Positions 1 to 41,079 of a stretch of DNA of 41,079 bases are shown here, piece by piece; the first letter of the stretch is position 1; each line of letters starts with the position of its first letter. Origin of the DNA: a virus. Lineage: Duplodnaviria > Heunggongvirae > Uroviricota > Caudoviricetes. A program made the position numbers and the translations under genes. The stretch lies in the IMG/VR virus record IMGVR_UViG_2778261579_000010, positions 1 to 41,079 of that record; one strand, written 5' to 3'. A model generated the notes under the pieces. That model worked only from the letters and a program-made list of their open reading frames with translations. It was not told the origin of the DNA and searched no databases.

Positions 1-933
1 ATGGACAACGACAAAATTGATCAACACAGCGACGAAATTGAAGTTGAGAGCGAAGAAAAAGAGCGCGGCAAAAAAATAGAAATAGATGAAGACCGACTCC
101 CCTCCCGGGCGATGGCAATTCATGAGCATATCCGCCAGGATGGTGAAAAAGAGCTGGAACGCGACGCAATGGCACTACTGTGGTCAGCCATTGCGGCGGG
201 TCTGTCGATGGGCGCTTCATTACTGGCAAAAGGGATATTTCATGTCGAACTGGAAGGTGTGCCGGGCAGCTTCTTGCTGGAGAATCTCGGTTATACCTTT
301 GGTTTTATTATCGTCATTATGGCCCGCCAGCAATTATTTACCGAAAACACCGTGACTGCGGTACTACCCGTCATGCAAAAACCGACAATAAGCAACGTTG
401 GCTTACTTATGCGGTTATGGGGCGTCGTGCTGCTGGGTAATATTCTCGGGACAGGTATTGCGGCGTGGGCATTTGAATATATGCCAATCTTCAATGAAGA
501 AACTCGCGATGCATTTGTCAAAATCGGCATGGATGTGATGAAGAACACCCCCAGCGAGATGTTTGCCAACGCGATCATTTCCGGCTGGCTGATCGCCACT
601 ATGGTTTGGATGTTTCCTGCAGCGGGTGCGGCAAAGATTGTGGTGATTATATTGATGACCTGGCTTATTGCCCTGGGTGACACCACTCACATCGTTGTCG
701 GTTCTGTTGAAATCCTCTATCTGGTGTTTAACGGTACGCTGCACTGGAGCGATTTCATCTGGCCCTTCGCACTACCTACTTTAGCGGGGAACATCTGCGG
801 CGGCACCTTTATCTTCGCGTTAATGAGTCATGCACAGATCCGTAACGACATGAGCAACAAGCGCAAAGCAGAAGCACGCCAAAAAGCAGAACGTGCGGAA
901 AACATTAAGAAAAATGATAAAAACCCGGCATAA
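1..933 (+). CDS. yfdC: Formate/nitrite-transporter-family inner membrane protein YfdC (host gene flanking argW)
   Basis: 310-aa ORF; near-identical over its whole length to E. coli YfdC as recalled; multiple hydrophobic helices; sits immediately upstream of tRNA-Arg as in K-12. Confidence 0.9.
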   Translation: MDNDKIDQHSDEIEVESEEKERGKKIEIDEDRLPSRAMAIHEHIRQDGEKELERDAMALLWSAIAAGLSMGASLLAKGIFHVELEGVPGSFLLENLGYTFGFIIVIMARQQLFTENTVTAVLPVMQKPTISNVGLLMRLWGVVLLGNILGTGIAAWAFEYMPIFNEETRDAFVKIGMDVMKNTPSEMFANAIISGWLIATMVWMFPAAGAAKIVVIILMTWLIALGDTTHIVVGSVEILYLVFNGTLHWSDFIWPFALPTLAGNICGGTFIFALMSHAQIRNDMSNKRKAEARQKAERAENIKKNDKNPA

Positions 934-1008
934 ATGGCGAGGGTTTAAGCAATCGAGCGGCAGTGTACTTACCCCGCAGTACATTAGCGGGTATACTCAT
1001 GCCGCATT

Positions 1009-1083
1009 GTCCTCTTAGTTAAATGGATATAACGAGCCCCTCCTAAGGGCTAATTGCAGGTTCGATTCCTGCAGGGGACACCA
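1009..1083 (+). tRNA. argW: tRNA-Arg (anticodon CCU), prophage attachment tRNA
   Basis: 75-nt cloverleaf: acceptor GTCCTCT, T-arm GCAGG-TTCGATT-CCTGC, anticodon loop CCTCCTAAG, 3' ACACCA; matches argW as recalled. Confidence 0.85.
1069..1083 (+). repeat. attL core (CTGCAGGGGACACCA) at the tRNA 3' end
   Basis: Exact 15-bp direct repeat with 39376..39390; the next base differs (T here, G at the right end). Confidence 0.8.
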
Positions 1084-1196
1084 TTTATCAGTTCGCTCCC
1101 ATCCGTAGCAGTCCGCAAAATCCCCTGAATATCAAGCCTTCCGTAGATTCACAGTTCGTCATGGTTCGCGTCAGATCGTTGACAGCCGCACACCAT

Positions 1197-1246
1197 GACG
1201 GGTAAAAAGTGGATAAAATAATTTTACCCACCGGATTTTTACCCAT
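1197..1246 (+). promoter_or_regulatory. Candidate integrase arm-type sites (GGGTAAAA / TTTTACCC motifs) in attL
   Basis: Three copies of the motif within 50 bp just upstream of int (cgGGTAAAAag, aaTTTTACCCac, tTTTTACCCat); the same motif recurs twice near attR. Confidence 0.3.
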
Positions 1247-2402
1247 GCTCACCGTTAAGCAGATTGAAGCAGCAAAGCCGAAAGAAAAACCATACCGCCT
1301 TCTCGATGGTAATGGCCTGTACCTTTATGTCCCTGTATCCGGGAAAAAGGTATGGCAGCTTCGCTACAAGATTGACGGTAAGGAAAAAATACTGACCGTA
1401 GGAAAATATCCGCTAATGACTTTGCAGGAGGCAAGAGATAAAGCATGGACCGCGAGGAAAGACATCTCGGTTGGCATCGATCCGGTAAAAGCGAAAAAGG
1501 CTTCGTCTAACAACAATTCCTTTAGTGCGATTTACAAGGAATGGTACGAGCACAAGAAGCAAGTCTGGTCAGTAGGCTATGCAAACGAACTTGCCAAAAT
1601 GTTTGACGACGACATTTTACCCATCATCGGCGGCCTTGAAATTCAGGATATTGAGCCGATGCAACTGCTGGAAGTAATCCGCAGATTTGAAGATCGCGGT
1701 GCAATGGAGCGAGCCAACAAAGCCCGCAGAAGATGCGGAGAGGTTTTCCGTTACGCTATTGTCACCGGAAGGGCTAAATATAACCCGGCACCTGACCTTG
1801 CAGACGCCATGAAAGGATACCGCAAGAAGAACTTCCCGTTTCTTCCTGCAGACCAGATCCCGGCATTCAACAAAGCACTGGCAACATTTTCAGGAAGTAT
1901 CGTATCGCTTATTGCGACTAAAGTTTTACGCTACACCGCCCTAAGAACGAAAGAACTTCGTTCCATGCTATGGAAGAACGTCGATTTTGAAAACAGGATT
2001 ATCACCATCGACGCCAGTGTGATGAAGGGTCGCAAGATTCATGTAGTACCGATGTCAGACCAGGTAGTTGAACTTCTCACTACGCTAAGCTCAATCACCA
2101 AACCAGTATCAGAGTTTGTTTTTGCCGGGCGCAACGATAAGAAGAAGCCAATCTGCGAGAACGCGGTGCTACTTGTGATCAAACAAATCGGCTATGAGGG
2201 TCTGGAAAGCGGTCACGGATTCAGGCATGAATTCAGTACGATTATGAACGAGCACGAATGGCCTGCTGACGCTATTGAAGTGCAACTTGCACATGCCAAC
2301 GGCGGATCTGTGCGCGGGATTTACAACCATGCTCAGTATCTCGATAAGCGCAGAGAAATGATGCAGTGGTGGGCGGATTGGCTTGATGAAAAGGTGGAGT
2401 GA
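1245..2402 (+). CDS. intS: Tyrosine recombinase, P4-family prophage integrase (IntS-like)
   Basis: ORF directly downstream of argW; N-terminus MLTVKQIEAAKPKEKPYRLLDGNGLYLYV and C-terminal HGFRHEF...H..Y catalytic region typical of P4-type integrases; the first ATG gives 385 aa (an in-frame GTG at 1209 would add 12 codons). Confidence 0.9.
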   Translation: MLTVKQIEAAKPKEKPYRLLDGNGLYLYVPVSGKKVWQLRYKIDGKEKILTVGKYPLMTLQEARDKAWTARKDISVGIDPVKAKKASSNNNSFSAIYKEWYEHKKQVWSVGYANELAKMFDDDILPIIGGLEIQDIEPMQLLEVIRRFEDRGAMERANKARRRCGEVFRYAIVTGRAKYNPAPDLADAMKGYRKKNFPFLPADQIPAFNKALATFSGSIVSLIATKVLRYTALRTKELRSMLWKNVDFENRIITIDASVMKGRKIHVVPMSDQVVELLTTLSSITKPVSEFVFAGRNDKKKPICENAVLLVIKQIGYEGLESGHGFRHEFSTIMNEHEWPADAIEVQLAHANGGSVRGIYNHAQYLDKRREMMQWWADWLDEKVE

Positions 2403-4384: not shown

Positions 4385-5320
4385 TCAGTAGTTATGTACT
4401 GAAGGAGGTAATTCTTTATTCTTAAGTCTCATCCATGCGGAAAGATTCGCTGGTCCGTCTGGCTCATTAATATCAACATCTCGTGTGTGATTAATTAAAA
4501 CGTCTCTCGCCATTCCGATAACATACGAGAACTCATGACCGTAGTCGTAGCATCTCCCGGAATAGTTCGATTGAATTTGTTTTAATGCCGGATACAGTTC
4601 GCGGAATAATGCCTGTGAACGGTTGGCATAATCCCATAACCATACAAGGCTGTTTGCTTCTTTTGCAGAAAGCTCGTCGGTTTTCTTCTCTTGTTTGCCA
4701 ATGAACTCACCTTCAAGTGGAACTCGAGCTGCAAGTGATAGTGCTTCGGTAAACTGCTCCTCACTGATCTCTTTGTACGAACATCCAAAATGGGATTTCA
4801 GTGACGACCACATGGTGATCATCGCCTTAGCCTGTTTTTCTTTTGGCAGAGACTGACCGCGACTCATGACGAGCTGTTTAATGGCTTCCTGCTGTTCAGT
4901 GGTGATTTTACCCGGCAACGCCTTTTTAGCTTTGCGTGGATTAACTACATGGCCTTTAGTCCAGTAGTCATGCAGCACGCTAAAGCATTCCTCCTGGTAC
5001 TGAATCAGTTTATCACGGATGTCAGCACGAACTTTCTCAGGGTTGATGCTGAACAGCCATCCATTTAACTTCTTCAAAGGAAGGCAGAGTAGCTTACGAA
5101 GCTTCCCATCAGCGGCAACCATGTTCATATGAACACAGTTGAATTTGCTAATCTGCTTCATGAGTTTTGTTTGCTGCGTTGACCAGCTCATTCCAAGGTT
5201 TTGAACGATTGGCTTCATCGCAACATATGCAACTCCGGCAGCCATAGCGGTGATAATTTGCTGACCGTTGAATGGTACGTAAGAGGTGTTCACTGCTTCT
5301 AAAATTGCTATACTATTCAT
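4385..5320 (-). CDS. ant: Antirepressor Ant (P22 immI type)
   Basis: N-terminus [43 protein letters not shown] matches P22 Ant as recalled; preceded by arc; start taken at the ATG with an upstream GGAG (the ORF extends in frame to 5386). Confidence 0.8.
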
Positions 5321-5388
5321 GTTGGTTTTTCTCCACGGATTTACTGACAACCGAAGCCCTGACTGTTCCCGCAGTTGGGGCTTCAACT

Positions 5389-5550
5389 TTACGCGCCAAT
5401 GCGCCCTTCCTTCTTAAAGCTTTCCATTACTCTCTGATAAATCTCAGAGTTAACAGACCGACCATTCTCTTCCGCCACCTTGCGGACCAAATCCAATACT
5501 TCTTTAGGCCACCGCAAATTGAACTGCGGCATTTTTCTTGCACCTTGCAT
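5389..5550 (-). CDS. arc: Arc repressor (ribbon-helix-helix)
   Basis: 53-aa ORF not in the supplied track: [53 protein letters not shown], near-identical to P22 Arc as recalled. Confidence 0.85.
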
Positions 5551-5643
5551 ATTCAACTCCACTTCATTAAATGGTATTACCGTACTACTATTGAAAGCGT
5601 ACTACTACCGTTCTACCATGTCAATAAATAAAAGGAGAATGAC
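5551..5643. promoter_or_regulatory. Divergent Pant / Pmnt promoter-operator region of immI
   Basis: 93-bp gap between divergent arc and mnt; contains the repeated motif CGTACTACTA (5580s and 5600s). Confidence 0.5.
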
Positions 5644-5886
5644 GTGGCTAGAAATGATCCGCAATTCAACGTAAGAATGCCAGATGAGATAAAACAGCAA
5701 CTTACGCATATTGCTGCAACAAATCGCCGCTCGATAAATGCAGAGATTATTTCAGCTATCGAACTGTGGATAAAAATTCATAAAGAGCAGCTAATACCTT
5801 CAAGTAGTCGAATCCTGACAAAGTCAGAGCAAGAAGCGCTTGATGTAGCTATCGATGTGTTAAAACGTGTGAGAGATGAGGGATAA
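5644..5886 (+). CDS. mnt: Mnt-like ribbon-helix-helix repressor
   Basis: 80 aa; N-terminus MARNDPQFNVRMPDEIKQQL resembles P22 Mnt (MARDDPHFNFRMP...); GTG start with AGGAG 8 nt upstream; divergent from arc-ant. Confidence 0.75.
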   Translation: MARNDPQFNVRMPDEIKQQLTHIAATNRRSINAEIISAIELWIKIHKEQLIPSSSRILTKSEQEALDVAIDVLKRVRDEG

Positions 5887-14032: not shown

Positions 14033-15328
14033 TCACGCAGTCTGGTTAGGCAGACCAACACCAATTGCCTCTGGTCGTACAGCACATGCTGAATACCACA
14101 CAGCAATACGGCACTTACCAGACAGAGTGTTGATATCACCCTGCGTTGCGAAGATGCCGTTAACACCAATACCAGGAATGCTGAAGGAAGAAGTTTTCAT
14201 GCCAGCAAACAGTTCATGAGTTACCGGGATCGGCTGAGACAGCAGACGGATTGAGTCATCAGCCCAGAACACGTTAGCGGTGGTTGTTGCCACGTTCAGA
14301 ACGTTTACCGGAGTGGTATCAGCAAGAGAGGTGTTTACGTTAGCGTAAGCCTTCTCTTCTTTTGTCAGTGACGCGTCATCCAGTGCAATCGGCTTCGGCG
14401 TGATTTCGATGTGAGTACCATCGATCACACGGGTGATTGAGAAAGTAGCATCATCAGTCAGCACGTTCTTCGCCATCTGAGACAGGAATTTCACACCAGT
14501 GAAGCTGATTTTGTCGCCGCGCTTAAACCCGGTGGTGGAGGATACGGTCACCGTTGCAACACGGTTGTCGACGTTCTCTTTGTTACCATCGGTATCAAGG
14601 GTGTATGCCTGCGGCTTAAACTTCTGCGCACCAGAAACAGTTACACCAGTAGCGGTTGACTTGGTAACTGCGGGAAGTTTCGGTGAGCGAAGAATTTCAT
14701 CAAAGCCAGCAATCTGACGCTGAATAGTACCGTTGTGATACGCGTCTTCAGTAACGCGCCCGAAGATGTCACCATCTACCAGGTTGCGGCCTGCTTTGCG
14801 GTAATCGTCAGGGTTCAGGAAGTAACTGATGCCCATATCGCGGTTTAGCTCACGGGAGAACATCAGGCGCTCTGCATCAGACACAAAATCCCAGCCAGAA
14901 AGGCCAGTAGATGGACCAATTGCGCGGGTATCGTGAACAACAAGCGAGCCCATTTCAGTTGCCTGTTTGGCAATCGCTGACTCAATGTTATTCGCCAGTT
15001 TTTTGGCGGATGCCTGGATGCGGCGACGGTAAGAACGCTCATCACGCAGGTCATCTGCACGAAGCTCGAAGAAATCGTTATCCGGATCGCCCATGTTGCA
15101 TTTCACGGAGAGTTCCAGAATCCCGGTTGCGTTGCCAGTTAAATCCCAGCCAGTCTGGGTTGGCGCTTCCTGCTCAACAGGCATCCACACGGTGTTGCTT
15201 GAACGCTGCATGGATTCTGCCGGAGGGGTGTATTTTGTCACTTTGGACGCCATTGGCGTCAGGTTCTGGACGGTTTCGATGATTTCATCCAGAGCATACG
15301 TGACCAGTTGACCTTCATTTAATGCCAT
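14033..15328 (-). CDS. Major capsid (coat) protein, P22 gp5-like
   Basis: 431 aa; [27 protein letters not shown]...[11 protein letters not shown] aligns over the whole length to P22 coat as recalled. Confidence 0.95.
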
Positions 15329-16239
15329 TATCGAATTCCTTTATTCAGTTGCGCCTTGAGCTTGCGGTACGTCTCTACATCCCCTTTGTTTGCTGCCGCT
15401 TCCATCTGCTTTTCAATCGCAGAGATATTTGCAGCAACAGCGTGTCCCTGAATGGGTTCATCAGGTAACGGGGCTTCTGAAACAGGCTTTGCTCGAGGCT
15501 TGAGAGTTAAACGTTCTGACAGTCGAGTGAGTTCAATCAGCGCGGATTGCCCGTCCATCGCCAGCAACTGGCGTGTTTTCTCAGGATTAGCACCAAGGTG
15601 ATACATGAGAGCGGCGGATTTCTCCGGGAAGAGGCGCATGATGTCGGCACCGACTGCTGGCGGCACCAGTTGCATGAATGCATCCTCTTTCTCCTGATAG
15701 TCAGGGATATTAAGCTTTTCCGCTGCATCGTAGTGCTTACGGGCGGCCTCGACGTATTGCGCTGATTGCTGGGTGAACTCCTGAGTTTTGCGGCCCTGCT
15801 CGGCGACAGCCTGGCTTCGTGCGTCCATAGCCTTGATCTGCCATTCACTGTTTGCCTGCTGGAAGGCAGCCAGTGCGCGGCTCTGGTCATAGTCGTACTT
15901 AGCCAGTGCATCTTCGGAAAGATAATCGTTAGGGTCTGGTTGTTTTGGTAACTCAGGGTTCACCCGCAGGTGCTCCGGCAACTCTCCACGCTTAACCGCT
16001 TCCATCTGCTGCTCAAGCTCACGCTGGCGTTTGCGTTCGATGCGGCGACGGGCAAATTCAGCATTAGTTGCCGGGTCTTGTTTTGGTTTCTCATCGTCTT
16101 TCAGGACAATCTCAAAGCCTTCTTCCTGACCTGCGTTGTCGTTGGCATTATCGACAACTAAGCCATCAGCAGATGCCGCTGCATGATTGCCGGGCAGGGT
16201 TAATTCTTCAGAAGCCTGAATGTCGGTGGTTTGGTCCAT
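15328..16239 (-). CDS. Scaffolding protein, P22 gp8-like
   Basis: 303 aa; strong match to P22 gp8 including the C-terminal coat-binding helix-turn-helix ([10 protein letters not shown]). Confidence 0.95.
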
Positions 16240-16252
16240 GATTAACTCTCTC

Positions 16253-18418
16253 TTATTGAGGTGTCTCGGCTACTCCGCCGGAGGGGATTTGAACTTGACG
16301 CATAAGATTCGCGAAATCCATGCGTTGTGAATGATTCTGGTCTGCATCTTTAAGAAGCAGCTCAGCGTTAGCACGAGCATCTTTGCTGCGCTGTTGCTGG
16401 AATTGACCTACTAGCTTGAGGTACTCACGCAGTTCTGCCTGCTTGTCGAGGTCCATATTGTTGAAGATTTCTGCAATCTTCGCGGCGTTGAGTTGGTTTT
16501 GGGCTTCAACCTTGGCGGCTTCAACATGAATCTGTGCCTGTTGGTTCTCTGCCTTGAGCAATTCAGCCTGACCTTGCAGAAGGATACCCTGCGCCTGAAT
16601 TTGCTCTGCTGATGGCTGCTGCGGCTGTTGTTGTGCCTGTTGTACCATCTCCATCTCTTCAGGTGTTTCTGGTTTCTTCAGCCCCATCATCACCAGTTGC
16701 TTGTTCGCGTACTCTCGCATCATCTCGACGCCTTTACCGTCAAGGAGCGTGAAGTATTGCAGCATCAGCATCTGGAACTCTGGAGTACCTTGCGGAACCT
16801 TGGTGAGTAACTCCTGAATCTCTGCGCGGTTCTGTTCCTTCATACTCTGGAAGGATGGTCCAACGTCTGTATAGCACTCATAGCGACCACGAATGTCGTT
16901 GAGTGTGACCACATTGCCGGACTGGTAATCGACAACTTGCGCATAGAGTTGAACGTCTTTCTCGCTTCCATCTTCAAGTGTCAGCGTTACATGACGAGGA
17001 ACGTCATAAATATCGTTGACCATTGAGGCATAAATCTCGCCATCACGTCGCATTGCGGTAGCCAGGTTATCCTGAAACACGTATGTCTCAAGGTCTGCCC
17101 GCATGTTCAGTTGATTGACGGTATCGAAAGCGACCTGAGAGTTTGCTGCCTGCGCATCCACACCAAGACTAGCCACCTCTTTCACTGCGTTGGTGGCAGC
17201 CTCAAGCATATAAGCGTTGGCTTGCGGCACTTCAGGGTTTTCCATGTAGGAGATTGGACCAATCGGCAGGTCGTTACCGTTTTCATCGGTCCTGTTCTGC
17301 AGATAGTACGGATAGTCATCATTTCCACCGTACATGTATTCGTAGCCTTCGATTTGCTCAGGGAAGAAGGTCGGTTTCTTCTTCGGTGAACGAGCAACAA
17401 TATCGGCGTTGAATGACATGATCATGTTACGAAGGCGTTGACCGTCTTTCGTCAGCCTTACCACTCCTTCGTAGCACTCCTTGTCACCAGCGAATGACCA
17501 TTCTCCATACACTGGAACGATTGGGATATGCTCTCCGGCTATCTTTTCTCGGTCTTTCAGTATCTGCGTGCAGGTGATGATCGACTTATACACACGCCGA
17601 CGCTTCACCTTGCGCTCTGCTACCTTAATGAATCCACGATTAGCCAGGTCGTCGATGACGTCTTTGATATCCTGCTGGTAATAGCTGACCGGCTCACCTG
17701 TCAGCGGGTCGCGGTAGATGAAGACCTTCTCCTTCTTCTCTTCGACCTCGTAATACTCAGCGACGTAGACGACATCATTCGATACCCACGGAAACAGCCA
17801 TGTATCGTTCGGATTCTGGAAAGATGGCAAGGTGTCAGGATCAATACCGTAATCCTCTGCGAACTCTTTCCAGCCATTGCGTGACAAGGCGTTAATCACC
17901 GTGCAGTGCTTAGCGTCGCTCTTATCCATCTGCTTGCTGTTGGCGTCCCATATGACGTGTGAGCAGGCTTCATGGATTGGCAGGCGTCGGATTACCTGAT
18001 TGTTGCTTGTTGGGTCGTTGTCTTCGTACTGCGTGACCAGACGCCATGCACCAACGCCTGACTCTATCTGCTCACGAACGCCAACATTAACGGCAATTTT
18101 TGCCGTGTTATGGCGCATATCAGTACGATACATCCCCATCAGCACATCGGCAGCATCAGGATTAGCACCGTCTTTTGGTCGGAAGAGAACGTCGATAGGG
18201 TTCCGGCGCATCTCTGCGACCAACTTCCTGACAACCGGGCGGACAACATCGAATTGTCCGCGATATTGCAGGGTGGTGTAGTTTGATAGCCAGTCATCCC
18301 ATTGCGACACTCGGCTAAAATACAGGTCATTTGTCGCCTCGGTTCTGGCTTCATCGCTCGCCATCCAGTCTGCGTCAAACTTACACAGAATGGAATTGAG
18401 TCTGTTTTCGTCGGCCAT
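16253..18418 (-). CDS. Portal protein, P22 gp1-like
   Basis: 721 aa; conserved portal core and long C-terminal barrel helix as in P22 portal. Confidence 0.95.
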
Positions 18419-21014: not shown

Positions 21015-21533
21015 TCACTTTGGCAGTCCTGGGATCGATATTTGCGCCTGCTGCTCAAGCCTTTCGATTCTTGCTATGAGTTGCGGTTTTTTGATCCTGC
21101 CCCAGCGGTTCAGCAAGCGTCCTGACATACTGGCAACATCCTTTTCCTTCATGAACTCCAGCATTAACTCGTTGTGCTCTCTTTGGTATGAGTGAGCCAT
21201 CTCCATCAGCCTGTCACGCATCCAATTAAATGCTTTGATAAACGCCTCTTTGATGGCGGCAGCTTTTTTGCCGGTAAACGACATGATGATGTACATCGCG
21301 CCGTCTTTGGAAATTTCATATTCAACATACTGATTACCCTTGTGTTCATAGGTAACCCGCGAAAAGTTGCTGGTTAGAAATTCATCCGAACAGTCTAGCT
21401 TTTCGATTTTCTGAATGATGTGGTGATGCTGCTTGTCGAAGTAAGCTGCTACCTTGCGGGAGGTTGTGATCACGCGATCACCAGAAACAACCACCATGTC
21501 CCGGAAATCGAGATTAGCCAATTGATGATTCAT
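21015..21533 (-). CDS. rha: Rha-family phage regulatory protein
   Basis: Motif VVSGDRVITTSRKVAAYFDKQHHHIIQKIEKL typical of the Rha domain; start taken at the ATG (MNHQLANLDF) with an upstream AAAGG (an in-frame GTG lies at 21569). Confidence 0.75.
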   Translation of the reverse strand: MNHQLANLDFRDMVVVSGDRVITTSRKVAAYFDKQHHHIIQKIEKLDCSDEFLTSNFSRVTYEHKGNQYVEYEISKDGAMYIIMSFTGKKAAAIKEAFIKAFNWMRDRLMEMAHSYQREHNELMLEFMKEKDVASMSGRLLNRWGRIKKPQLIARIERLEQQAQISIPGLPK

Positions 21534-23921: not shown

Positions 23922-23950
23922 AATTTACCCAACTTTATTCAAAAAGTCAA
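23922..23950 (-). promoter_or_regulatory. Late promoter pR' (-35 TTGACT, 17-bp spacer, -10 TAAATT) with Q-binding region
   Basis: Minus-strand sequence TTGACTTTTTGAATAAAGTTGGGTAAATTTGACCCAACGATGG closely resembles lambda pR' as recalled; lies about 45 bp downstream of the Q stop. Confidence 0.6.
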
Positions 23951-23992: not shown

Positions 23993-24616
23993 CTAACGTG
24001 TGACCGCATTCAAAATGTTGTCTGCGATTGACTCTTCTTTGTGGCATTGCACCACCAGAGCGTCATACAGCGGCTTAACAGTGCGTGACCAGGTGGGTTG
24101 GGTAAGGTTTGGGATTAGCATCGTTACAGCGCGATATGCGGCGCTTGCTGGCATCCTGGAATAGCCGACGCCTTTGCATCTTCCGCACTCTTTCTCGACA
24201 ACTCTCCCCCACTGCTCTGTTTTGGCAATATCAACGGCCCGGCCAGTACCGTGGCAATCTCTGCATCTTGCGCCCGGTGTCGCGGCACTACGGCAATAAT
24301 CCGCATAAGCGAATGTTGCGAGCACTTGCAGCACCTTTGCCTTAGTATTTCCTTCGAGCTTTGCCACACCACGGTATTTCCCCGATACCTTGTGTGCAAA
24401 TTGCATCAGATAGTTGATAGCCTTTTGTTTGTCGTTCTGGCTGAGTTCATGCTTACCACAGAATGCAGCCATTCCGAATCCGGCTTGTGATTGCGCCATC
24501 CCCATAGCAGCCATCACATCAGTACCGGAAAGAGAGTCAGAAGTCGTAGCCCGTGGTGAGTCGCTCATCATCGGGCTTTTTGGCGAATGAAATTTAGCTA
24601 CACTTTCGAGTCTCAT
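23993..24616 (-). CDS. Q: Late-gene antiterminator Q (lambda type)
   Basis: 207 aa; essentially identical to lambda Q as recalled (MRLESVAKFHSPKSPMMSDSPRAT...). Confidence 0.95.
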   Translation of the reverse strand: MRLESVAKFHSPKSPMMSDSPRATTSDSLSGTDVMAAMGMAQSQAGFGMAAFCGKHELSQNDKQKAINYLMQFAHKVSGKYRGVAKLEGNTKAKVLQVLATFAYADYCRSAATPGARCRDCHGTGRAVDIAKTEQWGRVVEKECGRCKGVGYSRMPASAAYRAVTMLIPNLTQPTWSRTVKPLYDALVVQCHKEESIADNILNAVTR

Positions 24617-24801
24617 GGTCTACCCCTCTTGCCCTGTTTGACCATCAGGACGCCGTTAACTATTACGTGACGCTCACCTTTGCTGTCTCGGTTGTACTTG
24701 AGCACTGTTCCTCTTGCGCAGGAAAGCATCCTTGCCACTTCGGTCTGATTGCCTCGTGTCTGGATAAGAAGTTCTGGTATCGTTTGAATTGTGGCGTTCA
24801 T
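24613..24801 (-). CDS. ninH: NinH-like protein
   Basis: 62 aa; central IPELLIQTRGNQTEVARMLSCARGTVLKY resembles lambda NinH. Confidence 0.7.
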   Translation of the reverse strand: MNATIQTIPELLIQTRGNQTEVARMLSCARGTVLKYNRDSKGERHVIVNGVLMVKQGKRGRP

Positions 24802-25160
24802 ACGTTCTCCAGTTCGGTGATTTTTATTCCAAGCCGTCCGCCTGGTACTTTCACACCACGAATTACGCGAATGTCATCGAATTGCTCGTCGTCTTCCGCA
24901 AATCCGGCGTGGATAAGGGAGTCGAGTAAACCTTTCAGGATGTTGTCGAGGTCGCGGCGGCGGGAGTCTGGAACGTCTGCGATGACTTTGATGCGGAGTC
25001 GTGATTTGGTGAAAATGTCTAACTTGAGTTGGCGGATGATTTGCTGAACGTCTTTTCGGTATTTCTGGCCTTTATCGCTGATGTAGTATTGACTCCCCCG
25101 TCTTCGCCAGTAGGTGTTCAGCGACGGTGGGTATGGAAGCACAAACTGATATTCGTTCAT
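24798..25160 (-). CDS. rusA: Holliday-junction resolvase RusA
   Basis: 120 aa; RusA motifs (DVPDSRRRDLDNILKGLLDSL, GGRLGIKITE). Confidence 0.85.
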   Translation of the reverse strand: MNEYQFVLPYPPSLNTYWRRRGSQYYISDKGQKYRKDVQQIIRQLKLDIFTKSRLRIKVIADVPDSRRRDLDNILKGLLDSLIHAGFAEDDEQFDDIRVIRGVKVPGGRLGIKITELENV

Positions 25161-25447
25161 GACTTAATCTTCCCCTCCTTCAGCAGTATCGCCTGCGTCC
25201 TGATCACGCCTTCGAGGTGGTAAAGTCTGGCGTCTTTGTTGTCGAGGTTATGGGTGCGTCGGTCGATTTCATCGTGACACGCGCTACAAGCCCATGCGCC
25301 GATCAGGTCGTCAGGCTTCATTCCAGTTCCGCAAATTCCAGCCATCCGGTAATGCGCCAGAACTGTAGTTTCAGGATTGCCATTGCATACGCCGTAAATA
25401 CGTACCTGACATTCTCTGCCGCGTGCTTCTTTGCGTAGATTGGCCAT
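25157..25447 (-). CDS. YbcO/DUF1364-like Cys-rich putative nuclease (nin region)
   Basis: 96 aa; cysteine pattern C..C...C..CHDEID; sits directly upstream of rusA as ybcO does in DLP12 (recalled). Confidence 0.6.
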   Translation of the reverse strand: MANLRKEARGRECQVRIYGVCNGNPETTVLAHYRMAGICGTGMKPDDLIGAWACSACHDEIDRRTHNLDNKDARLYHLEGVIRTQAILLKEGKIKS

Positions 25448-26169
25448 TAAGCAGCCTCCCCTGTTACTTTCAGCATTCCGTTATCGAGCAGCTTTCTGGT
25501 CAGCCACTGTTGGCCACGCCCGGTGATTTTTGTGGTGAACGATATCTGTATTCCGTGATTTGTATTGACCGCTGTTTCTTTCACTGTGAAATAGCCGCGA
25601 TCCATATATTCCTGCATTGGCACATTTCGCCGGGAACCTGAAGCAATAAGGATTTTGTGATCGCGCATCCACGCAAACAGTTTGTTTGGACCAATTCCAA
25701 CAACCTTTGCAAAGTTTCCAATCAAAATTCCGCTGGCCTCGCCAACGCGATCGGCAAACTCAACTTTAGGTGCGGCAATTGCGAGCTGGTTTTCCAGTTG
25801 CATTTTCTGCTCAGCAAGGTCAGCAGCAAGGCGCAACGCTTCTGGTAGCGTTTTTGGGATATTAACCGCAGTTTCTTCAAGCTCTCGCCAACGATCAACA
25901 AGACGAGCGGTGAATTCCGGCGACAACTGAGCGACGACAATAATGCTGTCTCGCTTACCTTGTTCGCCCTCAAAAACGTAAGCCTCTACGCCACGAAGTA
26001 ATCCTAAGTTATTGATTTTTTCGAAAACCACCATTGGGGGATTTCGGATCACACCTCGAGCCGCCAGTCGTTCAATAGATTGTTTCACCTTGTCATGACG
26101 ACTTCCCACCAACTCAGCGATTTCAATGCTTGTCATTTTGATGGCATTGCCATTTATTAACTCACTCAT
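25447..26169 (-). CDS. Rha-like / KilA-C antirepressor-family protein
   Basis: 240 aa; N-terminal Rha-like segment (TSIEIAELVGSRHDKVKQSIERL), C-terminal region resembling the KilA-C domain of antirepressors. Confidence 0.65.
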   Translation of the reverse strand: MSELINGNAIKMTSIEIAELVGSRHDKVKQSIERLAARGVIRNPPMVVFEKINNLGLLRGVEAYVFEGEQGKRDSIIVVAQLSPEFTARLVDRWRELEETAVNIPKTLPEALRLAADLAEQKMQLENQLAIAAPKVEFADRVGEASGILIGNFAKVVGIGPNKLFAWMRDHKILIASGSRRNVPMQEYMDRGYFTVKETAVNTNHGIQISFTTKITGRGQQWLTRKLLDNGMLKVTGEAA

Positions 26170-26338
26170 CGTCTTCTTCCTCGTACATTGAGCTATTCGG
26201 ATCGCTCATCAGTTCTGCACAGCAGTGCTCACACACGTGAACTTCCAGCACATGCAGCTTCTGGCCGCAGTTAGCGCACGTTAAAGCCCGCTCGACGCTT
26301 TCTTTCTGGTATTGAAGGGATTGGGATGGGCTAAGCAT
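26162..26338 (-). CDS. ninF: NinF-like small zinc-binding protein
   Basis: 58-aa ORF not in the supplied track: [58 protein letters not shown]; CxxC...CxxCC pattern. Confidence 0.6.
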   Translation of the reverse strand: MLSPSQSLQYQKESVERALTCANCGQKLHVLEVHVCEHCCAELMSDPNSSMYEEEDDE

Positions 26339-27285: not shown

Positions 27286-27552
27286 TTACTCCTTCACTTT
27301 GACTCCAGCAGCGCGAATCAGTCCTTCGCATTCACTAATTGCGTCGTTATAACCAAATGTGACCCCATCCTCGAAATCGGTAGAAAATGCCTCACGCTCT
27401 CTTTCTCCAGGACACTCAATCTCGATAGCTGCTCGCGATGCCTGCCACGCTTGCCAATACATCTCAACCATATTGGCGTATATTTTATTTTTAGGATCAC
27501 ATCCGGTGTAATTTTCAAACCATTCTTCAAACTGCTTTCTTGATTCGTCCAT
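27286..27552 (-). CDS. Hypothetical phage protein
   Basis: 88-aa acidic ORF abutting the ninB start. Confidence 0.5.
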   Translation of the reverse strand: MDESRKQFEEWFENYTGCDPKNKIYANMVEMYWQAWQASRAAIEIECPGEREREAFSTDFEDGVTFGYNDAISECEGLIRAAGVKVKE

Positions 27553-27569
27553 CGATACTTACCCTCAGT

Positions 27570-27776
27570 TCAACTCACAAAACGCCACGCCATTTTTGCT
27601 ACAGCGACAGGCATAACACCGATAATCACCCACAGGAGAATGCTACCGAACAGCACACCCACCAGGTCTTTACCTTCGCCTACCAACCGGACAAAACTTC
27701 CGACAACCACAATGAACGTCGCCACCATCCACATAGCACCGAGAAGCCTCAATGCAGAGAAAATTAACTCAGCCAC
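27570..27776 (-). CDS. Small hydrophobic membrane protein
   Basis: 68 aa with two hydrophobic helices. Confidence 0.45.
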   Translation of the reverse strand: MAELIFSALRLLGAMWMVATFIVVVGSFVRLVGEGKDLVGVLFGSILLWVIIGVMPVAVAKMAWRFVS

Positions 27777-27794: not shown

Positions 27795-27823
27795 TAAAAA
27801 GGCCTGCAATTACCAGCAGGCCT
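27795..27823 (-). terminator. Rho-independent terminator downstream of the primase-helicase gene
   Basis: Minus-strand hairpin GGCCTGCTGGTAATTGCAGGCC followed by TTTTTATTT. Confidence 0.55.
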
Positions 27824-27852: not shown

Positions 27853-29733
27853 TTAATACTCCGTCACGTTTTCCTGTCGCCACGCCTCGTCATATTCCGA
27901 TTTCGGCATATTAGCGATGTAGCTATATGGCGACCCTGATTCAAGTTGCAGGAACTGGTGCGATTGCTCGTCAAGGAACAACGGGACACCACCTTCCCAA
28001 CCTTCGCCGTTACGTTGTTTTTCAAGCATCAAAACAGATGCCGGAGATGCCAGTAGCTGTTCGTCCTTCTCTGACATCTTTTCACCACTCTGAACTCTCT
28101 GTAACGCTCTCTCGCGAGCCTTGTTACGCCAGATGATGAAAAGGTTGTCTGTCAGGTCTGTTATCGCTCCAGAGCCTTTTACGTCCATTTTCCCGGTTGG
28201 TTTTTCTTCGCTGTCTCCTTTTCGCGAGTGAGTAACGAGAATGACGTGGGAGTTTGTTTTGTTTTTGAAGTCGCAAATCGAGTCAACAAACGCCTTCTGC
28301 CCGTTATAGTCATCGTCGCCTATGCCACATTTCATCAGGCTGTCGATGATGAATAACTGGATCCCGTATCGGCGGCGAGCGTAGTCGAATATTTCGATCA
28401 GCCTGTCGGCTTTCGCCGTTCCGGTCAGGCCAAACACCCAAAGTCTTTCGTCATAAAATTTAAATGCAGAGTCAATTTCCAGCACTGGCGGCATCTTGCA
28501 GCACGTCGCCTGACGGGTAAGGCGCTTAAGGAGAATACCAGGCTTCAGCTCAAGTGACGCGATGCACGTCTTCACACCCTGACGCATTGCCTCAAGTGCC
28601 ATATGCCCGACAACCTCCGTTTTTCCGTGACCGTTCACACCATTGACCAGCGTCAACTCTGCCTCACGGAACTGGAATTTATCTGCCAGAGATTCCCACG
28701 GTGGATTAAACAGATACTGCTGCTTGCCGTAGAAAGCGTTGATAGTGTCCTGGTAAAACTCTCGCGCGCTGTAGAGTTCTTCAGGATCGAAGTAGGATGC
28801 CGTGCCGATGTACTGCCAGATTTCATCCTCGGTAACACCGTTCATCAGGCATTCGTTGATGTCTTTGTACGGCAGAGTAACAAGACGGCAACGATGTTCA
28901 CCGAGTCGGCTTGCGATTTCCCTTGCGGCTTCACGACCAACATCATCAACATCCATCGAGATGAATATTTCCTCAAACCTGTCGAGGTTGTGATACTCAA
29001 ACTCAATCCACTGTTGCTTAGCGCCTTTCCCGCCACCAAACGGCACGGATAACGCCGAGATGCCGTATTGCGCATAGCTCATACAATCAATTTCGCCTTC
29101 GCAAAGTACAACCGCCCTCACGCCAGCGTCCAGAGCCTGCCATCCGAACAGACAAGGTTCGCAATCACCTTCTGCCATAATGACTTTCTTCCCGTCCGGG
29201 CGCTCAGTGCTGATTCGCTTTACCTGCAACAACTCACCATCGCGTTTGTACGGAATCACCAGAGCATCCAGTTCTCGCTCTCCATTCCACACCTTGCCGC
29301 TGACAACCTCGTAGCGCTTTACGATTTCTGGCGATATGCCACGCGATTGCAGGTACTCAAGATGGGATTCTGTTCTGGTAACGTAGCGGGCGATTTTCTT
29401 GCGGTCAGGTCTGGAGAATTTCTTCTCACGTTTGGCATCGAAATGGTGATCGTCATCCTTGATTCCGAGAAAGGCTTTCGCTTCCTGCATAGCCTGATGC
29501 AGGTTAATTCCACGACATGCCATCCACAAATCAAGCATGTCACCGCCGTCTCCCTCAGCGAAATCAGCCCATTTTTTCTTGCCGCTAAGGTTGACCTTAA
29601 GGCTGTTTCCCTTGTCACCGTTGACGTTACCGGCAACCCACTCATGCCCCTCTTTCTTGCCGTTTGGCAACAGGTGCGGAGCCACCCTGTCAACCTGCGC
29701 CCAAAGCAGGTCGCTAAGTTCACTTGGCGTCAT
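27853..29733 (-). CDS. Bifunctional DNA primase / replicative helicase (TOPRIM plus RecA-like helicase domains)
   Basis: 626 aa; central TOPRIM-like acidic cluster (VVLCEGEIDCMSY), C-terminal Walker A (GVNGHGKTE) and Walker B (QLFIIDSLMK) motifs; directly downstream of the O-like initiator. Confidence 0.75.
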   Translation of the reverse strand: MTPSELSDLLWAQVDRVAPHLLPNGKKEGHEWVAGNVNGDKGNSLKVNLSGKKKWADFAEGDGGDMLDLWMACRGINLHQAMQEAKAFLGIKDDDHHFDAKREKKFSRPDRKKIARYVTRTESHLEYLQSRGISPEIVKRYEVVSGKVWNGERELDALVIPYKRDGELLQVKRISTERPDGKKVIMAEGDCEPCLFGWQALDAGVRAVVLCEGEIDCMSYAQYGISALSVPFGGGKGAKQQWIEFEYHNLDRFEEIFISMDVDDVGREAAREIASRLGEHRCRLVTLPYKDINECLMNGVTEDEIWQYIGTASYFDPEELYSAREFYQDTINAFYGKQQYLFNPPWESLADKFQFREAELTLVNGVNGHGKTEVVGHMALEAMRQGVKTCIASLELKPGILLKRLTRQATCCKMPPVLEIDSAFKFYDERLWVFGLTGTAKADRLIEIFDYARRRYGIQLFIIDSLMKCGIGDDDYNGQKAFVDSICDFKNKTNSHVILVTHSRKGDSEEKPTGKMDVKGSGAITDLTDNLFIIWRNKARERALQRVQSGEKMSEKDEQLLASPASVLMLEKQRNGEGWEGGVPLFLDEQSHQFLQLESGSPYSYIANMPKSEYDEAWRQENVTEY

Positions 29734-29840: not shown

Positions 29841-30701
29841 TCACCTGTCGAAAAACACGTAGCCAGTTTTCGATACGGTGATTGCGGATGATGGTTTGGA
29901 TTGTGGTTGAATAGTTTCTGGCTTCTCGTCGTTCCAGCGTTGACCGTTCAGGTAGCTCGATGGTAACAACCTGTCGAATCCGAACTGCTTACCATTCCTG
30001 CATGCGATGTCTTCTGCCAGCATCGTGGCAAACTCGCTTGCCGTACCCCTGGTAGTTTTACGCCATTCCCTGAACTGTGTTCTGAATGCCGAAGCCGCGT
30101 TTTTCTTCCCGGCTTTCCGCATGCCTGCACACCAGAATATTTCCTCGAATGCCTTGTCGGTTTCTTCGTGACGGTCAGATGATTTTTCACACTCCGTCCG
30201 AACACTTTCGGACATAGTGTTTTTATTATTTCTTTTTTCTTTTGTAATAGTTTCTTTTGTGTGTCCCTGTTTTGGTGACAGCGCTGTCACCGTTTTGGTG
30301 ACACTTTTTGTCACCAATGCAGTGACATTATCACCAGAGTAGTGACACCCTTCGATTTGCCATTCTTCGATGTTCTTGTTAGGCCCGATTTGCTGGCCTT
30401 CGCGAAGGATAACCTTCATCGCGATAAGCTCATTCTTGGCCTTGTTTACCTTCTGTCTTGGCAGCCTGGTAATTTGAGCTAACTGACTATCAGAAATGCG
30501 ATCCATCTTTTTACCGTAGCCGTATGTTTTACGGCATATGGCGTGGGCAACCTTGCTCTGATTTTTCGTTAAATCTGCGCCGATAAGCTCTTCATACAGG
30601 GCATTTGCAAGACGGGTATAACCATCTTCAACTTCTGCCACACGACGCTCCACAGGCCGTTGTGAAGGCCTTAAATGTGTTACGGTTGCAAGATTACTCA
30701 T
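29841..30701 (-). CDS. O: Replication initiator, lambda O-like
   Basis: 286 aa; N-terminal domain ([56 protein letters not shown]...GPNKNIEEW) matches lambda O as recalled; iterons lie inside the gene. Confidence 0.8.
30255..30345. repeat. Replication origin iterons inside the O gene
   Basis: Clustered repeats of GGTGACA / TGTCACC (e.g. TTTTGGTGACAGCGCTGTCACCGTTTTGGTGACAC) in the linker-coding region of O, as for ori-lambda. Confidence 0.7.
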
Positions 30702-31285: not shown

Positions 31286-32638
<1,353 letters not shown>

Positions 32639-39831: not shown

Positions 39832-41079
39832 CTATATTGCTGAAGGTACAGGCGTTTCCATAACTATTTGCTCGCGTTTTTTACTCAGGAAGAAAATGCC
39901 AAATAGCAACATCAGGCAGACAATACCCGAAATTGCGAAGAAAACTGTCTGGTAGCCTGCGTGGTCAAAGAGTATCCCAGTCGGCGTTGAAAGCAGCACA
40001 ATCCCAAGCGAACTGGCAATTTGAAAACCAATCAGAAAGATCGTCGACGACAGGCGCTTATCAAAGTTTGCCACGCTGTATTTGAAGACGGATATGACAC
40101 AAAGTGGAACCTCAATGGCATGTAACAGCTTCACTAATGAAATAATCCAGGGGTTAACGAACAACGCGCAGGAAAGGATACGCAACGCCATAATCACAAC
40201 ACCGATAAGTAATGCATTTTTTGGCCCTACCCGATTCACAAAGAAAGGAATAATCGCCATGCACAGCGCTTCGAGTACCACCTGGAATGAGTTGAGATAA
40301 CCATACAGGCGCGTTCCTACATCGTGTGATTCGAATAAACCTGCATAAAAGACAGGAAAGAGTTGTTGATCAAAAATGTTATAGAAAGACCACGTCCCCA
40401 CAATAAATATGACGAAAACCCAGAAGTTTCGATCCTTGAAAACTGCGATAAAATCCTCTTTTTTTACCCCTCCCGCATCCGCCGCTATGCACTGGTGATC
40501 CTTATCTTTAAAACGCATGTTGATCATCATAAATACAGCGCCAAATAGCGAGACCAACCAGAAGTTGATATGGGGACTGATACTAAAAAATATGCCGGCA
40601 AAGAACGCGCCAATAGCATAGCCAAAAGATCCCCAGGCGCGCGCTGTTCCATATTCGAAATGAAAATTTCGCGCCATTTTTTCAGTGAAGCTGTCAAGCA
40701 AACCACATCCCGCCAGATACCCCAGGCCAAAAAAGAGCGCCCCCAGAATTAGACCTACAGAAAAATTGCTTTGCAGTAACGGTTCATAAACGTAAATCAT
40801 AAACGGTCCGGTCAAGACCAGAATGAAACTCATACACCAGATGAGCGGTTTCTTCAGACCGAGTTTATCCTGAACGATGCCGTAGAACATCATAAATAGA
40901 ATGCTGGTAAACTGGTTGACCGAATAAAGTGTACCTAATTCCGTCCCTGTTAATCCTAGATGTCCTTTCAGCCAAATAGCGTATAACGACCACCACAGCG
41001 ACCAGGAAATAAAAAAGAGAAATGAGTAACTGGATGCAAAACGATAGTATGCATTTCTGAATGGAATATTCAGTGCCAT
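39832..41079 (-). CDS. cscB: Sucrose:H+ symporter CscB (LacY-family MFS permease)
   Basis: 415 aa, 12 predicted TM helices; N-terminus MALNIPFRNAYYRFASSYSFLFFISWSLWWSLYAIWLKGHLGLTG matches CscB as recalled; start codon is the last triplet of the window. Confidence 0.85.
   Translation of the reverse strand: MALNIPFRNAYYRFASSYSFLFFISWSLWWSLYAIWLKGHLGLTGTELGTLYSVNQFTSILFMMFYGIVQDKLGLKKPLIWCMSFILVLTGPFMIYVYEPLLQSNFSVGLILGALFFGLGYLAGCGLLDSFTEKMARNFHFEYGTARAWGSFGYAIGAFFAGIFFSISPHINFWLVSLFGAVFMMINMRFKDKDHQCIAADAGGVKKEDFIAVFKDRNFWVFVIFIVGTWSFYNIFDQQLFPVFYAGLFESHDVGTRLYGYLNSFQVVLEALCMAIIPFFVNRVGPKNALLIGVVIMALRILSCALFVNPWIISLVKLLHAIEVPLCVISVFKYSVANFDKRLSSTIFLIGFQIASSLGIVLLSTPTGILFDHAGYQTVFFAISGIVCLMLLFGIFFLSKKREQIVMETPVPSAI

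What the first reader, a model, noticed from the sequence alone, without database searches (positions are those of the whole stretch)
25157..26169. Extra antirepressor-like gene inserted in the nin region; three Rha/Ant-family proteins in one prophage
Between ninF and rusA sit a 240-aa Rha/KilA-C protein and a YbcO-like Cys-rich protein. Together with Ant (4385..5320) and Rha (21015..21533) the prophage encodes three antirepressor-type regulators alongside two repressor systems (434 cI and Mnt/Arc). This suggests layered control of induction or cross-talk with other resident prophages.
Basis: partly seen in the sequence, partly recalled or inferred. Interest (0 to 1): 0.4.

Follow-up and report, generated by a model that had tools for sequence, protein, structure and literature searches.

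The report
Known roi gene in nin region
The "extra antirepressor" is the long-known lambdoid phage gene roi, followed by the usual ybcO-rusA nuclease pair, in its standard place in a P22-like E. coli prophage; it is ordinary and is not a demonstrated antirepressor.

Summary
On the minus strand, 25447..26169 encodes a 240-aa protein with a C-terminal KilAC/ANT domain and a Rha-type N-terminal domain. 25157..25447 encodes a 96-aa YbcO/DUF1364 protein. Ant, Rha, 434-type cI and Mnt/Arc (plus sar RNA) are all present as stated.

The 240-aa protein is Roi. It is 90% identical to HK022 Roi and sits in the same ninF-roi-ybcO-rusA-ninH-Q order annotated in HK022, HK97, HK620 and CUS-3. Similar DNA occurs in 1354 of 5426 complete E. 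coli genomes.

Roi was defined as a DNA-binding protein that binds inside its own gene next to an IHF site and blocks lytic growth in IHF mutants. A consensus IHF site lies inside this roi and is kept in 87 of 87 alleles. roi lies in the cI-repressed pR delayed-early operon and rha in the late operon. Neither is therefore placed to trigger induction.

Only Ant is a classical antirepressor. Carrying several proteins built from these shuffled domains is normal: one Stx2a phage has five. Verdict: already known, low interest.

One side observation may be worth a look. A deeply diverged cassette in roi covers the predicted recognition helix and wing.

The parts
25447..26169 (-). roi: 240-aa DNA-binding protein Roi, with an N-terminal Rha-type winged helix, a long central helix and a C-terminal KilAC/ANT domain
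   Evidence: Pfam and PHROG matches. 90% aa identity to HK022 Roi and 91% to HK620 Roi. Annotated 'roi' in HK022, HK620, HK97 and CUS-3 at the same position. AF2 model has mean pLDDT 92.7.
25873..26136 (-). Part of roi encoding the Rha-type N-terminal domain (residues 12-99). The model shows strand 11-13, helices 14-21 and 25-37, and a beta-hairpin wing 46-67.
   Evidence: Phage_pRha at 27.7 bits, below GA 29.9. 49 of 52 homologues match Phage_pRha, and some also match Crp/MarR winged-helix families. Secondary structure.
25981..26106 (-). Deeply diverged allelic cassette (roi codons 22-63), covering the predicted recognition helix and wing
   Evidence: About four allele classes among 87 roi genes. 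dS is 0.58-2.25 here against 0.09-0.17 in the rest of the gene. DNA identity falls to 40-76%.
26005..26017 (-). IHF consensus (WATCAANNNNTTR) AATCAATAACTTA inside roi, at nt 153-165 of the gene
   Evidence: One of only two matches in the 41-kb window. Kept in 87 of 87 roi alleles, with synonymous positions unchanged although the surrounding cassette is near saturation.
25486..25794 (-). Part of roi encoding the KilAC/ANT domain (residues 126-228)
   Evidence: Pfam PF03374 at 113.2 bits. Residues 104-233 are 67% identical to the P7 KilA C-terminus, and residues 60-234 are 53% identical to P7 Ant1.
25157..25447 (-). ybcO/hkbD: 96-aa DUF1364 Cys/His-rich protein, a predicted His-Me (HNH-like) zinc nuclease. 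Its start overlaps the roi stop (TAATG).
   Evidence: Pfam YbcO at 150 bits. PDB 3G27 at E 1.9e-40. PHROG 131 'HNH endonuclease'. Nuclease prediction in PMC4999995. Sequence junction.
26162..26338 (-). ninF. Its last 8 nt overlap the roi start.
   Evidence: Pfam NinF. Junction read. NinF lies directly upstream of roi in 51 of 79 IMG/VR loci.
24798..25160 (-). rusA Holliday-junction resolvase, with an ATGA overlap with ybcO
   Evidence: Pfam RusA. Junction. RusA follows YbcO in 44 of 76 loci.
23993..24801 (-). ninH (24613..24801) and the late antiterminator Q (23993..24616), which close the early-right operon
   Evidence: Pfam Phage_NinH and Antiterm.
27800..27823 (-). tR2-like intrinsic terminator upstream of the nin region
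   Evidence: Terminator scan. HK620 annotates tR2 at the equivalent place.
23922..23950 (-). pR'-like late promoter just downstream of Q. It is the only promoter-like site found between 23800 and 27900.
   Evidence: Promoter scan. HK620 annotates pR' at the equivalent place.
4385..5320 (-). ant: P22-type antirepressor
   Evidence: P22_AR_N at 150.8 bits and P22_AR_C at 102.4 bits. PHROG 245.
5321..5886 (.). The rest of immI: sar antisense RNA 5321..5388 (+), arc 5389..5562 (-), mnt 5644..5886 (+)
   Evidence: Rfam RF00262 at 95.6 bits. Pfam Arc matches.
21015..21533 (-). rha: Rha-family regulator in the late operon, between Rz and the small terminase gene
   Evidence: Phage_pRha at 84.1 bits and ORF11CD3 at 83.9 bits. 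100% identical to the 'Rha' of phages Gally and APC_JM3.2.
31605..32237 (+). cI repressor of 434 immunity
   Evidence: HTH_3 + Peptidase_S24. N-terminal 69 residues identical to the 434 repressor structures 1R69/1PER.

Best explanation
The 240-aa gene is roi, an allele of the HK022/HK97/HK620 gene of that name. The 96-aa gene is its usual downstream neighbour ybcO (hkbD), a small zinc His-Me nuclease-like protein that travels with the Holliday-junction resolvase RusA. Both are ordinary members of one common version of the lambdoid nin region. They are translationally coupled to ninF upstream and rusA downstream. They are transcribed from pR as delayed-early genes, after N-dependent read-through of a tR2-like terminator. 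Roi has a Rha-type winged-helix DNA-binding domain, a long helix and a KilAC domain. By orthology with HK022 Roi it binds DNA inside its own coding sequence next to an IHF site. The Roi/IHF nucleoprotein complex modulates lytic development, and without IHF Roi blocks lytic growth. It acts after the repressor has been removed. It is not a cI-inactivating antirepressor. Shown here: identity, synteny, domain architecture, operon position and a conserved intragenic IHF consensus. Inferred from orthology and my recollection of the 1996 abstract: DNA binding at its own gene and the IHF-dependent growth phenotype. Speculative: that the complex acts on transcription running through the nin region towards Q.
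Against: The original Roi paper could not be read here. The statements that Roi binds within its own gene beside an IHF site therefore rest on my memory of its abstract plus the title cited in PMC3430580. The IHF consensus is degenerate, and two hits in the window equal the chance expectation of 1.87. Only its position and conservation argue for function, and part of that conservation could reflect the protein motif INNLG. No Roi operator could be identified. The C-terminal 130-175 residues are 53-67% identical to P7 Ant1 and KilA, so a protein-protein activity of that half is not excluded. No solved structure resembles the model convincingly.
Confidence: 0.72

Rival explanations
1. One reading: Roi is a true antirepressor. 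It binds and inactivates the 434-type cI of this prophage, or the repressors of other resident prophages, adding a further layer of induction control or cross-talk alongside Ant and Rha.
For: Roi residues 60-234 are 53% identical to P7 Ant1, annotated as antagonising C1 repression through an Ant1/Ant2/C1 complex. PHROG and RefSeq label the family 'anti-repressor'. Even a delayed-early product could act in trans on heteroimmune prophages once this phage is induced or infects.
Against: roi lies downstream of pR, cro, cII, O, the helicase gene and a tR2-like terminator, with no promoter of its own. It is therefore made only after cI has already been inactivated. It lacks the dedicated control circuits seen for P22 ant (mnt/arc/sar) and P1 ant (C1 operator and c4 antisense RNA). 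The same C-terminal module is 67% identical to KilA, a host-killing protein, so the module does not diagnose antirepression. P1 C1 is unrelated to 434 cI (my own knowledge). The only experimental description of Roi is as a DNA-binding protein. Roi has no P22_AR domains.
Confidence: 0.12
2. Roi acts like Listeria AriS. Its KilAC domain dampens the host SOS response, probably through RecA, while the N-terminal domain regulates the phage's own genes. This would align or restrain the response of co-resident prophages, which is the opposite sign to an antirepressor.
For: Azulay et al. 2022 (PMC9043618) showed that the isolated ANT/KilAC domain of AriS, and of two homologues with different N-domains, blocks SOS induction when overexpressed. 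They list pRha+KilAC among AriS-like architectures. Roi has that architecture.
Against: That activity was shown only in Listeria phages and only on overexpression; at native level AriS promoted lytic growth. No sequence comparison between Roi and AriS could be made here. Nothing links the IHF-dependent Roi phenotype to SOS.
Confidence: 0.1
3. Roi is chiefly a host-directed toxin or division inhibitor of the KilA type, used for host takeover during lytic growth.
For: Residues 104-233 are 67% identical to P7 KilA ('expression can kill host'). The KilA-C domain of staphylococcal phage phi11 Gp07 inhibits growth and causes filamentation in E. coli (PMC5944126 abstract).
Against: The KilA N-terminal domain is absent from Roi. 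Roi is carried by a quarter of E. coli genomes in prophages. The published phenotype is inhibition of phage growth in IHF- hosts only.
Confidence: 0.05

Closest known systems
Roi of coliphage HK022 (Clerget & Boccard 1996, J Bacteriol 178:4077); also annotated roi in HK97, HK620, CUS-3, HK629, mEpX1/2, VT2-Sakai, 933W-type and phi24B Stx phages
   Same: Same length (240 vs 241 aa) and 90% identity, with residues 64-240 essentially invariant. Same position between ninF and ybcO/rusA upstream of Q. Same two-domain architecture and the same intragenic IHF consensus.
   Different: The window carries a different allele of the codon 22-63 cassette (class 'A', also the commonest in the IMG/VR sample). 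The host phage is a P22-like podovirus with 434 immunity rather than an HK022-type siphovirus.
P1/P7 Ant1/Ant2 antirepressor and KilA
   Same: The C-terminal long helix plus KilAC domain is shared, at 53% identity to Ant1 and 67% to KilA.
   Different: The N-terminal domains are unrelated. P1 ant is controlled by a C1 operator and c4 antisense RNA, whereas roi has no control region of its own. The target of Ant1/2 (C1) has no counterpart here.
AriS of Listeria phage phi10403S (Azulay et al. 2022, PMC9043618)
   Same: [quoted passage not shown]
   Different: Distant sequence, a Gram-positive host and a different genomic position. The SOS-inhibitory activity is untested for Roi.
Rha of P22 and phi80 (Henthorn & Friedman 1995, as cited in PMC4936722)
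   Same: Rha-type N-terminal domain. Both roi and rha were defined by the same phenotype, interference with phage growth in IHF-deficient hosts. The window carries a bona fide rha as well.
   Different: Rha has an ORF11CD3 C-terminus instead of KilAC and lies in the late operon. Pairwise similarity between Roi and Rha is negligible.
E. coli K-12 DLP12 YbcO (PDB 3G27) / HK620 HkbD / HK97 gp66
   Same: The 96-aa protein aligns end to end with the 3G27 sequence (E 1.9e-40). It precedes rusA as in HK620, HK022 and HK97.
   Different: Nothing notable.

Membership tests
Roi (HK022-type roi orthologues) | Full-length high identity to HK022 Roi | tested here: met
   90% identity over 240 aa to HK022 Roi and 91% to HK620 and N7 Roi.
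Roi (HK022-type roi orthologues) | Location in the nin region between P/helicase and Q, flanked by ninF and ybcO-rusA | tested here: met
   Same order as the annotated HK620 and HK022 records. Fixed spacing in 50 of 76 and 51 of 79 IMG/VR loci.
Roi (HK022-type roi orthologues) | IHF-binding site within the roi coding sequence (feature recalled from the 1996 abstract) | tested here: met
   A consensus WATCAANNNNTTR lies at 26005..26017 and is conserved in 87 of 87 alleles. This is a sequence match only; binding was not tested.
Roi (HK022-type roi orthologues) | Roi binds its own gene and blocks lytic growth in IHF- hosts | not testable with these tools
   Needs EMSA or footprinting and plating on himA/hip mutants.
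Pfam ANT / KilAC (PF03374) | Score above the gathering threshold | tested here: met
   113.2 bits against 25.3, residues 126-228.
Pfam Phage_pRha (PF09669) | Score above the gathering threshold for the N-terminal domain | tested here: inconclusive
   27.7 bits against 29.9 for this sequence. However, 49 of 52 homologues match, best E 8.8e-18. Near-identical proteins also carry a precomputed PF09669.16 hit.
P22-type antirepressor (Ant, immI) | P22_AR_N and P22_AR_C domains, with control by Mnt, Arc and sar RNA | tested here: not met
   Roi has neither domain and no significant similarity to the window's Ant. It has no control region of its own. The separate gene at 4385..5320 meets all these features.
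P1-type antirepressor (Ant1/Ant2) | Ant1-type N-terminal region, nested Ant2 start, and control by a C1 operator and c4 antisense RNA | tested here: not met
   Only the C-terminal 175 residues align. The P7 control elements annotated have no counterpart upstream of roi, which overlaps ninF.
AriS-like dual-function regulators | Variable N-terminal regulatory domain plus C-terminal ANT/KilAC domain | tested here: met
   pRha-type N-domain plus KilAC. The architecture is listed in PMC9043618.
AriS-like dual-function regulators | The KilAC domain inhibits the SOS response | not testable with these tools
   Requires SOS reporter assays.
YbcO / DUF1364 (PF07102) | Score above threshold and conserved Cys/His treble-clef residues | tested here: met
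   150.1 bits against 29.9. End-to-end alignment to PDB 3G27 with the Cys/His positions kept.

The most novel reading that the evidence does not exclude
roi may carry a self-contained specificity cassette. Codons 22-63 encode the predicted recognition helix and wing, and exist in about four deeply diverged allele classes embedded in an otherwise near-identical gene. The same stretch of DNA carries a strictly conserved IHF site and, by the 1996 report, the Roi-binding site. If the protein's DNA-reading surface and its own target are encoded by the same DNA segment, they would co-diverge. That would give lambdoid phages Roi 'types' analogous to immunity types. Such types could let one phage interfere with, or avoid interference from, the lytic growth of co-resident or superinfecting relatives.
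Probability: 0.12. Interest if true: 0.45.

Novelty: already known. Interest (0 to 1): 0.12.

Why it matters
It matters mainly as a correction. Database names such as 'anti-repressor Ant' or 'antirepressor KilAC domain protein' for this gene invite a wrong functional reading. The gene is roi, described in 1996, and it is present in roughly a quarter of complete E. coli genomes and in many Stx phages. Its mechanism has barely been studied since, so it remains a very common but poorly understood phage regulator. In this window it is a routine mosaic module. It is not evidence of an unusual induction circuit.

Tried and rejected
(1) The original Roi paper (PMC178163) is not held. Literature searches for newer functional work on Roi found only comparative-genomics mentions.

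(3) I looked for repeats in the 5' half of roi that could be a Roi operator and found only short, unconvincing ones.

(4) I looked for another P22-like genome carrying all three of Ant, Rha and Roi. None turned up among the about eight P22-like genomes and prophages inspected (N7, HZ41, HK620, IME10, Dewey, Gally, and prophages in E. coli VTB96777v, FREC5 and F374), or in overlaps of the truncated top-80 IMG/VR lists. Every pairwise combination does occur: Roi+Ant in N7, HZ41 and F374; Roi+Rha in Gally, JEP4 and six IMG/VR contigs; Ant+Rha in seven IMG/VR contigs. The sampling is too thin to call the triple rare.

(5) I considered that the cassette divergence reflects positive selection. I rejected this as the main cause because dS is also very high there, with dN/dS 0.15-0.69. 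It looks like old divergence moved by recombination.

(6) I considered an internal promoter that would let roi be expressed in the lysogen. None was found, although the scan is a simple consensus search.

Full report
**What is there**

The reported interval holds two minus-strand genes.

- The ORF at 25447..26169 encodes 240 aa. Pfam gives a strong KilAC/ANT domain (113.2 bits, residues 126-228). It also gives a Phage_pRha match at residues 12-99 that falls just under the curated cut-off (27.7 against 29.9 bits). PHROGs places the protein in phrog_63 'anti-repressor Ant' (3.9e-95).
- The ORF at 25157..25447 encodes 96 aa. It is a clear YbcO/DUF1364 protein (150 bits). It aligns end to end with the crystallised DLP12 YbcO, PDB 3G27 (E 1.9e-40). 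That family has been predicted to be a His-Me/HNH-like zinc nuclease (PMC4999995).
- The neighbours are ninB, ninX and ninF upstream, and rusA, ninH and Q downstream.
- The junctions overlap: ninF/roi by 8 nt, roi/ybcO as TAATG, ybcO/rusA as ATGA, and rusA/ninH as ATGA. The genes therefore form one translationally coupled block.

- Ant (4385..5320) has the P22_AR_N and P22_AR_C domains.
- Rha (21015..21533) has Phage_pRha plus ORF11CD3.
- Arc and Mnt are present, and the sar antisense RNA lies at 5321..5388 (Rfam 95.6 bits).
- The first 69 residues of cI are identical to the 434 repressor.

**What it is**

The 240-aa protein is Roi.

- It is 90% identical to the annotated roi product of HK022 and 91% identical to those of HK620 and N7. 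Residues 64-240 are almost invariant.
- The 2.2-kb block is 93-96% identical at DNA level to N7, Kapi1, CUS-3, HK629, HK97, HK022 and HK620.
- The order ninF-roi-hkbD(ybcO)-rus-ninH-Q is annotated exactly so in HK620 and HK022.
- Among 80 IMG/VR contigs that encode Roi at 90% identity or more, YbcO follows directly in 50 of 76 with enough flank. NinF precedes directly in 51 of 79.
- The remaining contigs are mostly Stx-phage-type nin regions, in which roi is followed by ninG instead.
- DNA similar to the 1013-bp interval occurs in 1354 of 5426 complete E. coli genomes. In 585 of them the match covers at least 80% of the interval.
- The protein database holds thousands of relatives. One 90%-identity cluster is seen on at least 1000 contigs.

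The gene is thus not an unusual insertion. It is one of the standard alternative versions of the lambdoid nin region.

The junction is nonetheless a real mosaic slot. Phage Dewey has an HNH gene there, and the FREC5 prophage has a 70-aa ORF. The slot after Rz that holds rha here holds a GIY-YIG nuclease or a KilA-like gene elsewhere.

**Architecture**

An AlphaFold2 model built on 52 diverse full-length homologues is confident (mean pLDDT 92.7). It shows the following elements:

- an N-terminal winged-helix-like unit: strand 11-13, helices 14-21 and 25-37, and a hairpin 46-67;
- two further helices, 68-102;
- a 37-residue helix, 108-144;
- a compact C-terminal domain, 150-229.

Of the 52 homologues, 49 match Phage_pRha (best E 8.8e-18). 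Several also match Crp- or MarR-type winged-helix families. The N-domain is therefore a Rha-type DNA-binding domain, even though this particular sequence scores just under Pfam's threshold.

No solved structure is close.

- PDB sequence search: nothing.
- Foldseek: nothing significant.

The C-terminal half is a widely shared module. Residues 104-233 are 67% identical to the C-terminus of P7 KilA. Residues 60-234 are 53% identical to P7 Ant1. One module thus occurs in an antirepressor, a host-killing protein and Roi, so its presence does not indicate which function a protein has.

The three 'Rha/Ant-family' proteins of this window share no significant pairwise similarity. They are three different combinations of shuffled phage regulatory domains.

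**How it most likely works**

[quoted passage not shown] The title is cited in PMC3430580 and PMC4587872. From my memory of the abstract, Roi binds a site within its own gene that is closely linked to an IHF site, and IHF stabilises that binding. The paper itself could not be read here.

The sequence fits this description.

- The IHF consensus WATCAANNNNTTR occurs only twice in the 41-kb window. One occurrence is inside roi, at 26005..26017.
- Two hits equal the chance expectation for the window. The position is nevertheless conserved in all 87 roi alleles collected.
- It sits inside a cassette whose DNA identity between allele classes drops to 40-76%, and whose synonymous divergence is 0.6-2.3. 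The codons ATC AAT .. TTA GG stay unchanged, which suggests a constraint at the DNA level.

Gene order places roi in the pR operon: cro, cII, O, primase-helicase, a tR2-like terminator at 27823..27800, then the nin genes and Q. No promoter-like site lies before pR' at 23950..23922. rha lies beyond pR' in the late operon, as in P22 (PMC4936722).

Both proteins are therefore made only after 434 cI has already left the operators. That is the wrong timing for a trigger of this prophage's own induction. Ant, by contrast, has its own Mnt/Arc/sar circuit.

I conclude that Roi is a delayed-early DNA-binding regulator acting with IHF during lytic development.

- Identity as roi: about 0.97.
- This mechanism as the main function: about 0.6.

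YbcO with RusA is the recombination and junction-processing pair that, in this nin version, occupies the place held by ninG in the Stx2a phage examined.

**Rivals**

1. True antirepressor. In favour are the Ant1 homology and the database names. Against are the operon position, the lack of a dedicated control circuit, the equal similarity to KilA, and the only experimental description of Roi. Action in trans on heteroimmune prophages after induction cannot be excluded.
2. AriS-like damping of the SOS response. In Listeria the isolated KilAC domain blocks SOS when overexpressed, and pRha+KilAC proteins are listed among AriS-like architectures (PMC9043618). This is untested in enterobacteria.
3. 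KilA-like host toxicity.

These rivals are not mutually exclusive with DNA binding.

**Is three unusual?**

It is not.

- A Stx2a phage examined here carries five proteins from this domain set: ORF6N+P22_AR_C directly upstream of Roi, Roi itself, P22_AR_N+ORF11CD3, Rha+ORF11CD3, and a lone ORF6N.
- PMC3430580 describes Ant and Roi as neighbours in phi24B and related Stx phages.
- Among P22-like genomes I found Roi+Ant (N7, HZ41, E. coli F374), Roi+Rha (Gally, JEP4, six IMG/VR contigs) and Ant+Rha (seven IMG/VR contigs).

I did not find a second P22-like genome with all three. The sample was small and the lists were truncated, so I make no claim about rarity.

**Side observation**

roi alleles differ almost only in codons 22-63. 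This stretch encodes the predicted recognition helix and wing, and it falls into about four classes. Both dS and dN are high there. That pattern points to an old, recombining cassette rather than recent positive selection.

The same DNA segment carries the conserved IHF site and, reportedly, the Roi site. It could therefore be a self-contained specificity cassette. This is speculative.

**Verdict**

The feature is already known (roi, ybcO and rusA in a standard nin region), and its interest is low.

Noticed in passing
window 1..2402 and 39832..41079: The prophage is integrated at tRNA-Arg(CCU) (1009..1083). A host formate/nitrite-transporter-family gene lies on one side (1..933), and the phage integrase (1209..2402) sits next to the tailspike gene. 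A LacY-type sugar permease lies beyond the other end. The layout resembles an argW insertion next to a csc-type sucrose locus; that interpretation comes from memory.
   Followed up: partly
window 5321..5388 (+): The sar antisense RNA (Rfam RF00262, 95.6 bits) overlaps the ant translation start. It completes a full P22-type immI region (mnt, arc, sar, ant) in a phage with 434 immunity.
   Followed up: yes
window 25981..26106 (-), roi codons 22-63: A deeply diverged allelic cassette with about four classes. dS is 0.6-2.3 against about 0.1 elsewhere in the gene. It coincides with the predicted recognition helix and wing of the N-terminal winged helix, and a 15-nt island (AATCAATAACTTAGG, IHF consensus) is conserved in every allele.
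   Followed up: partly
window 25731..25747 (-): A terminator-like hairpin (7-bp stem with a weak T tract) lies inside the conserved part of roi. The scan found 7 such sites against 4.7 expected, so it may be chance.
   Followed up: no
L007 33685..34194 (phage Dewey); L250 21516..21728 and 17213..17698 (E. coli FREC5); L253 18363..18848 (E. coli F374); L005 18129..18626 (HK620): The ninF/ybcO junction and the Rz/terminase junction are interchangeable slots. The first holds roi, an HNH endonuclease or a 70-aa ORF. The second holds rha, a GIY-YIG nuclease or a KilA-like gene.
   Followed up: partly
L251 5390..8097 and 14896..16806 (Stx2a phage Stx2_06E050): Five proteins built from the same shuffled domain set occur in one Stx phage: ORF6N, ORF6N+P22_AR_C, Roi, P22_AR_N+ORF11CD3 and Rha+ORF11CD3. 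There roi is followed by ninG rather than ybcO-rusA.
   Followed up: yes
window 27853..29733 (-): The replication module is a single 626-aa Toprim plus DnaB-like primase-helicase fusion after an O-type initiator (29841..30701), not a lambda P or DnaC-type loader.
   Followed up: no
window 27286..27776 (-): Two small ORFs (88 aa and a hydrophobic 68 aa) lie between the tR2-like terminator and ninB. The 88-aa ORF has no Pfam match; the 68-aa ORF was not scanned.
   Followed up: no
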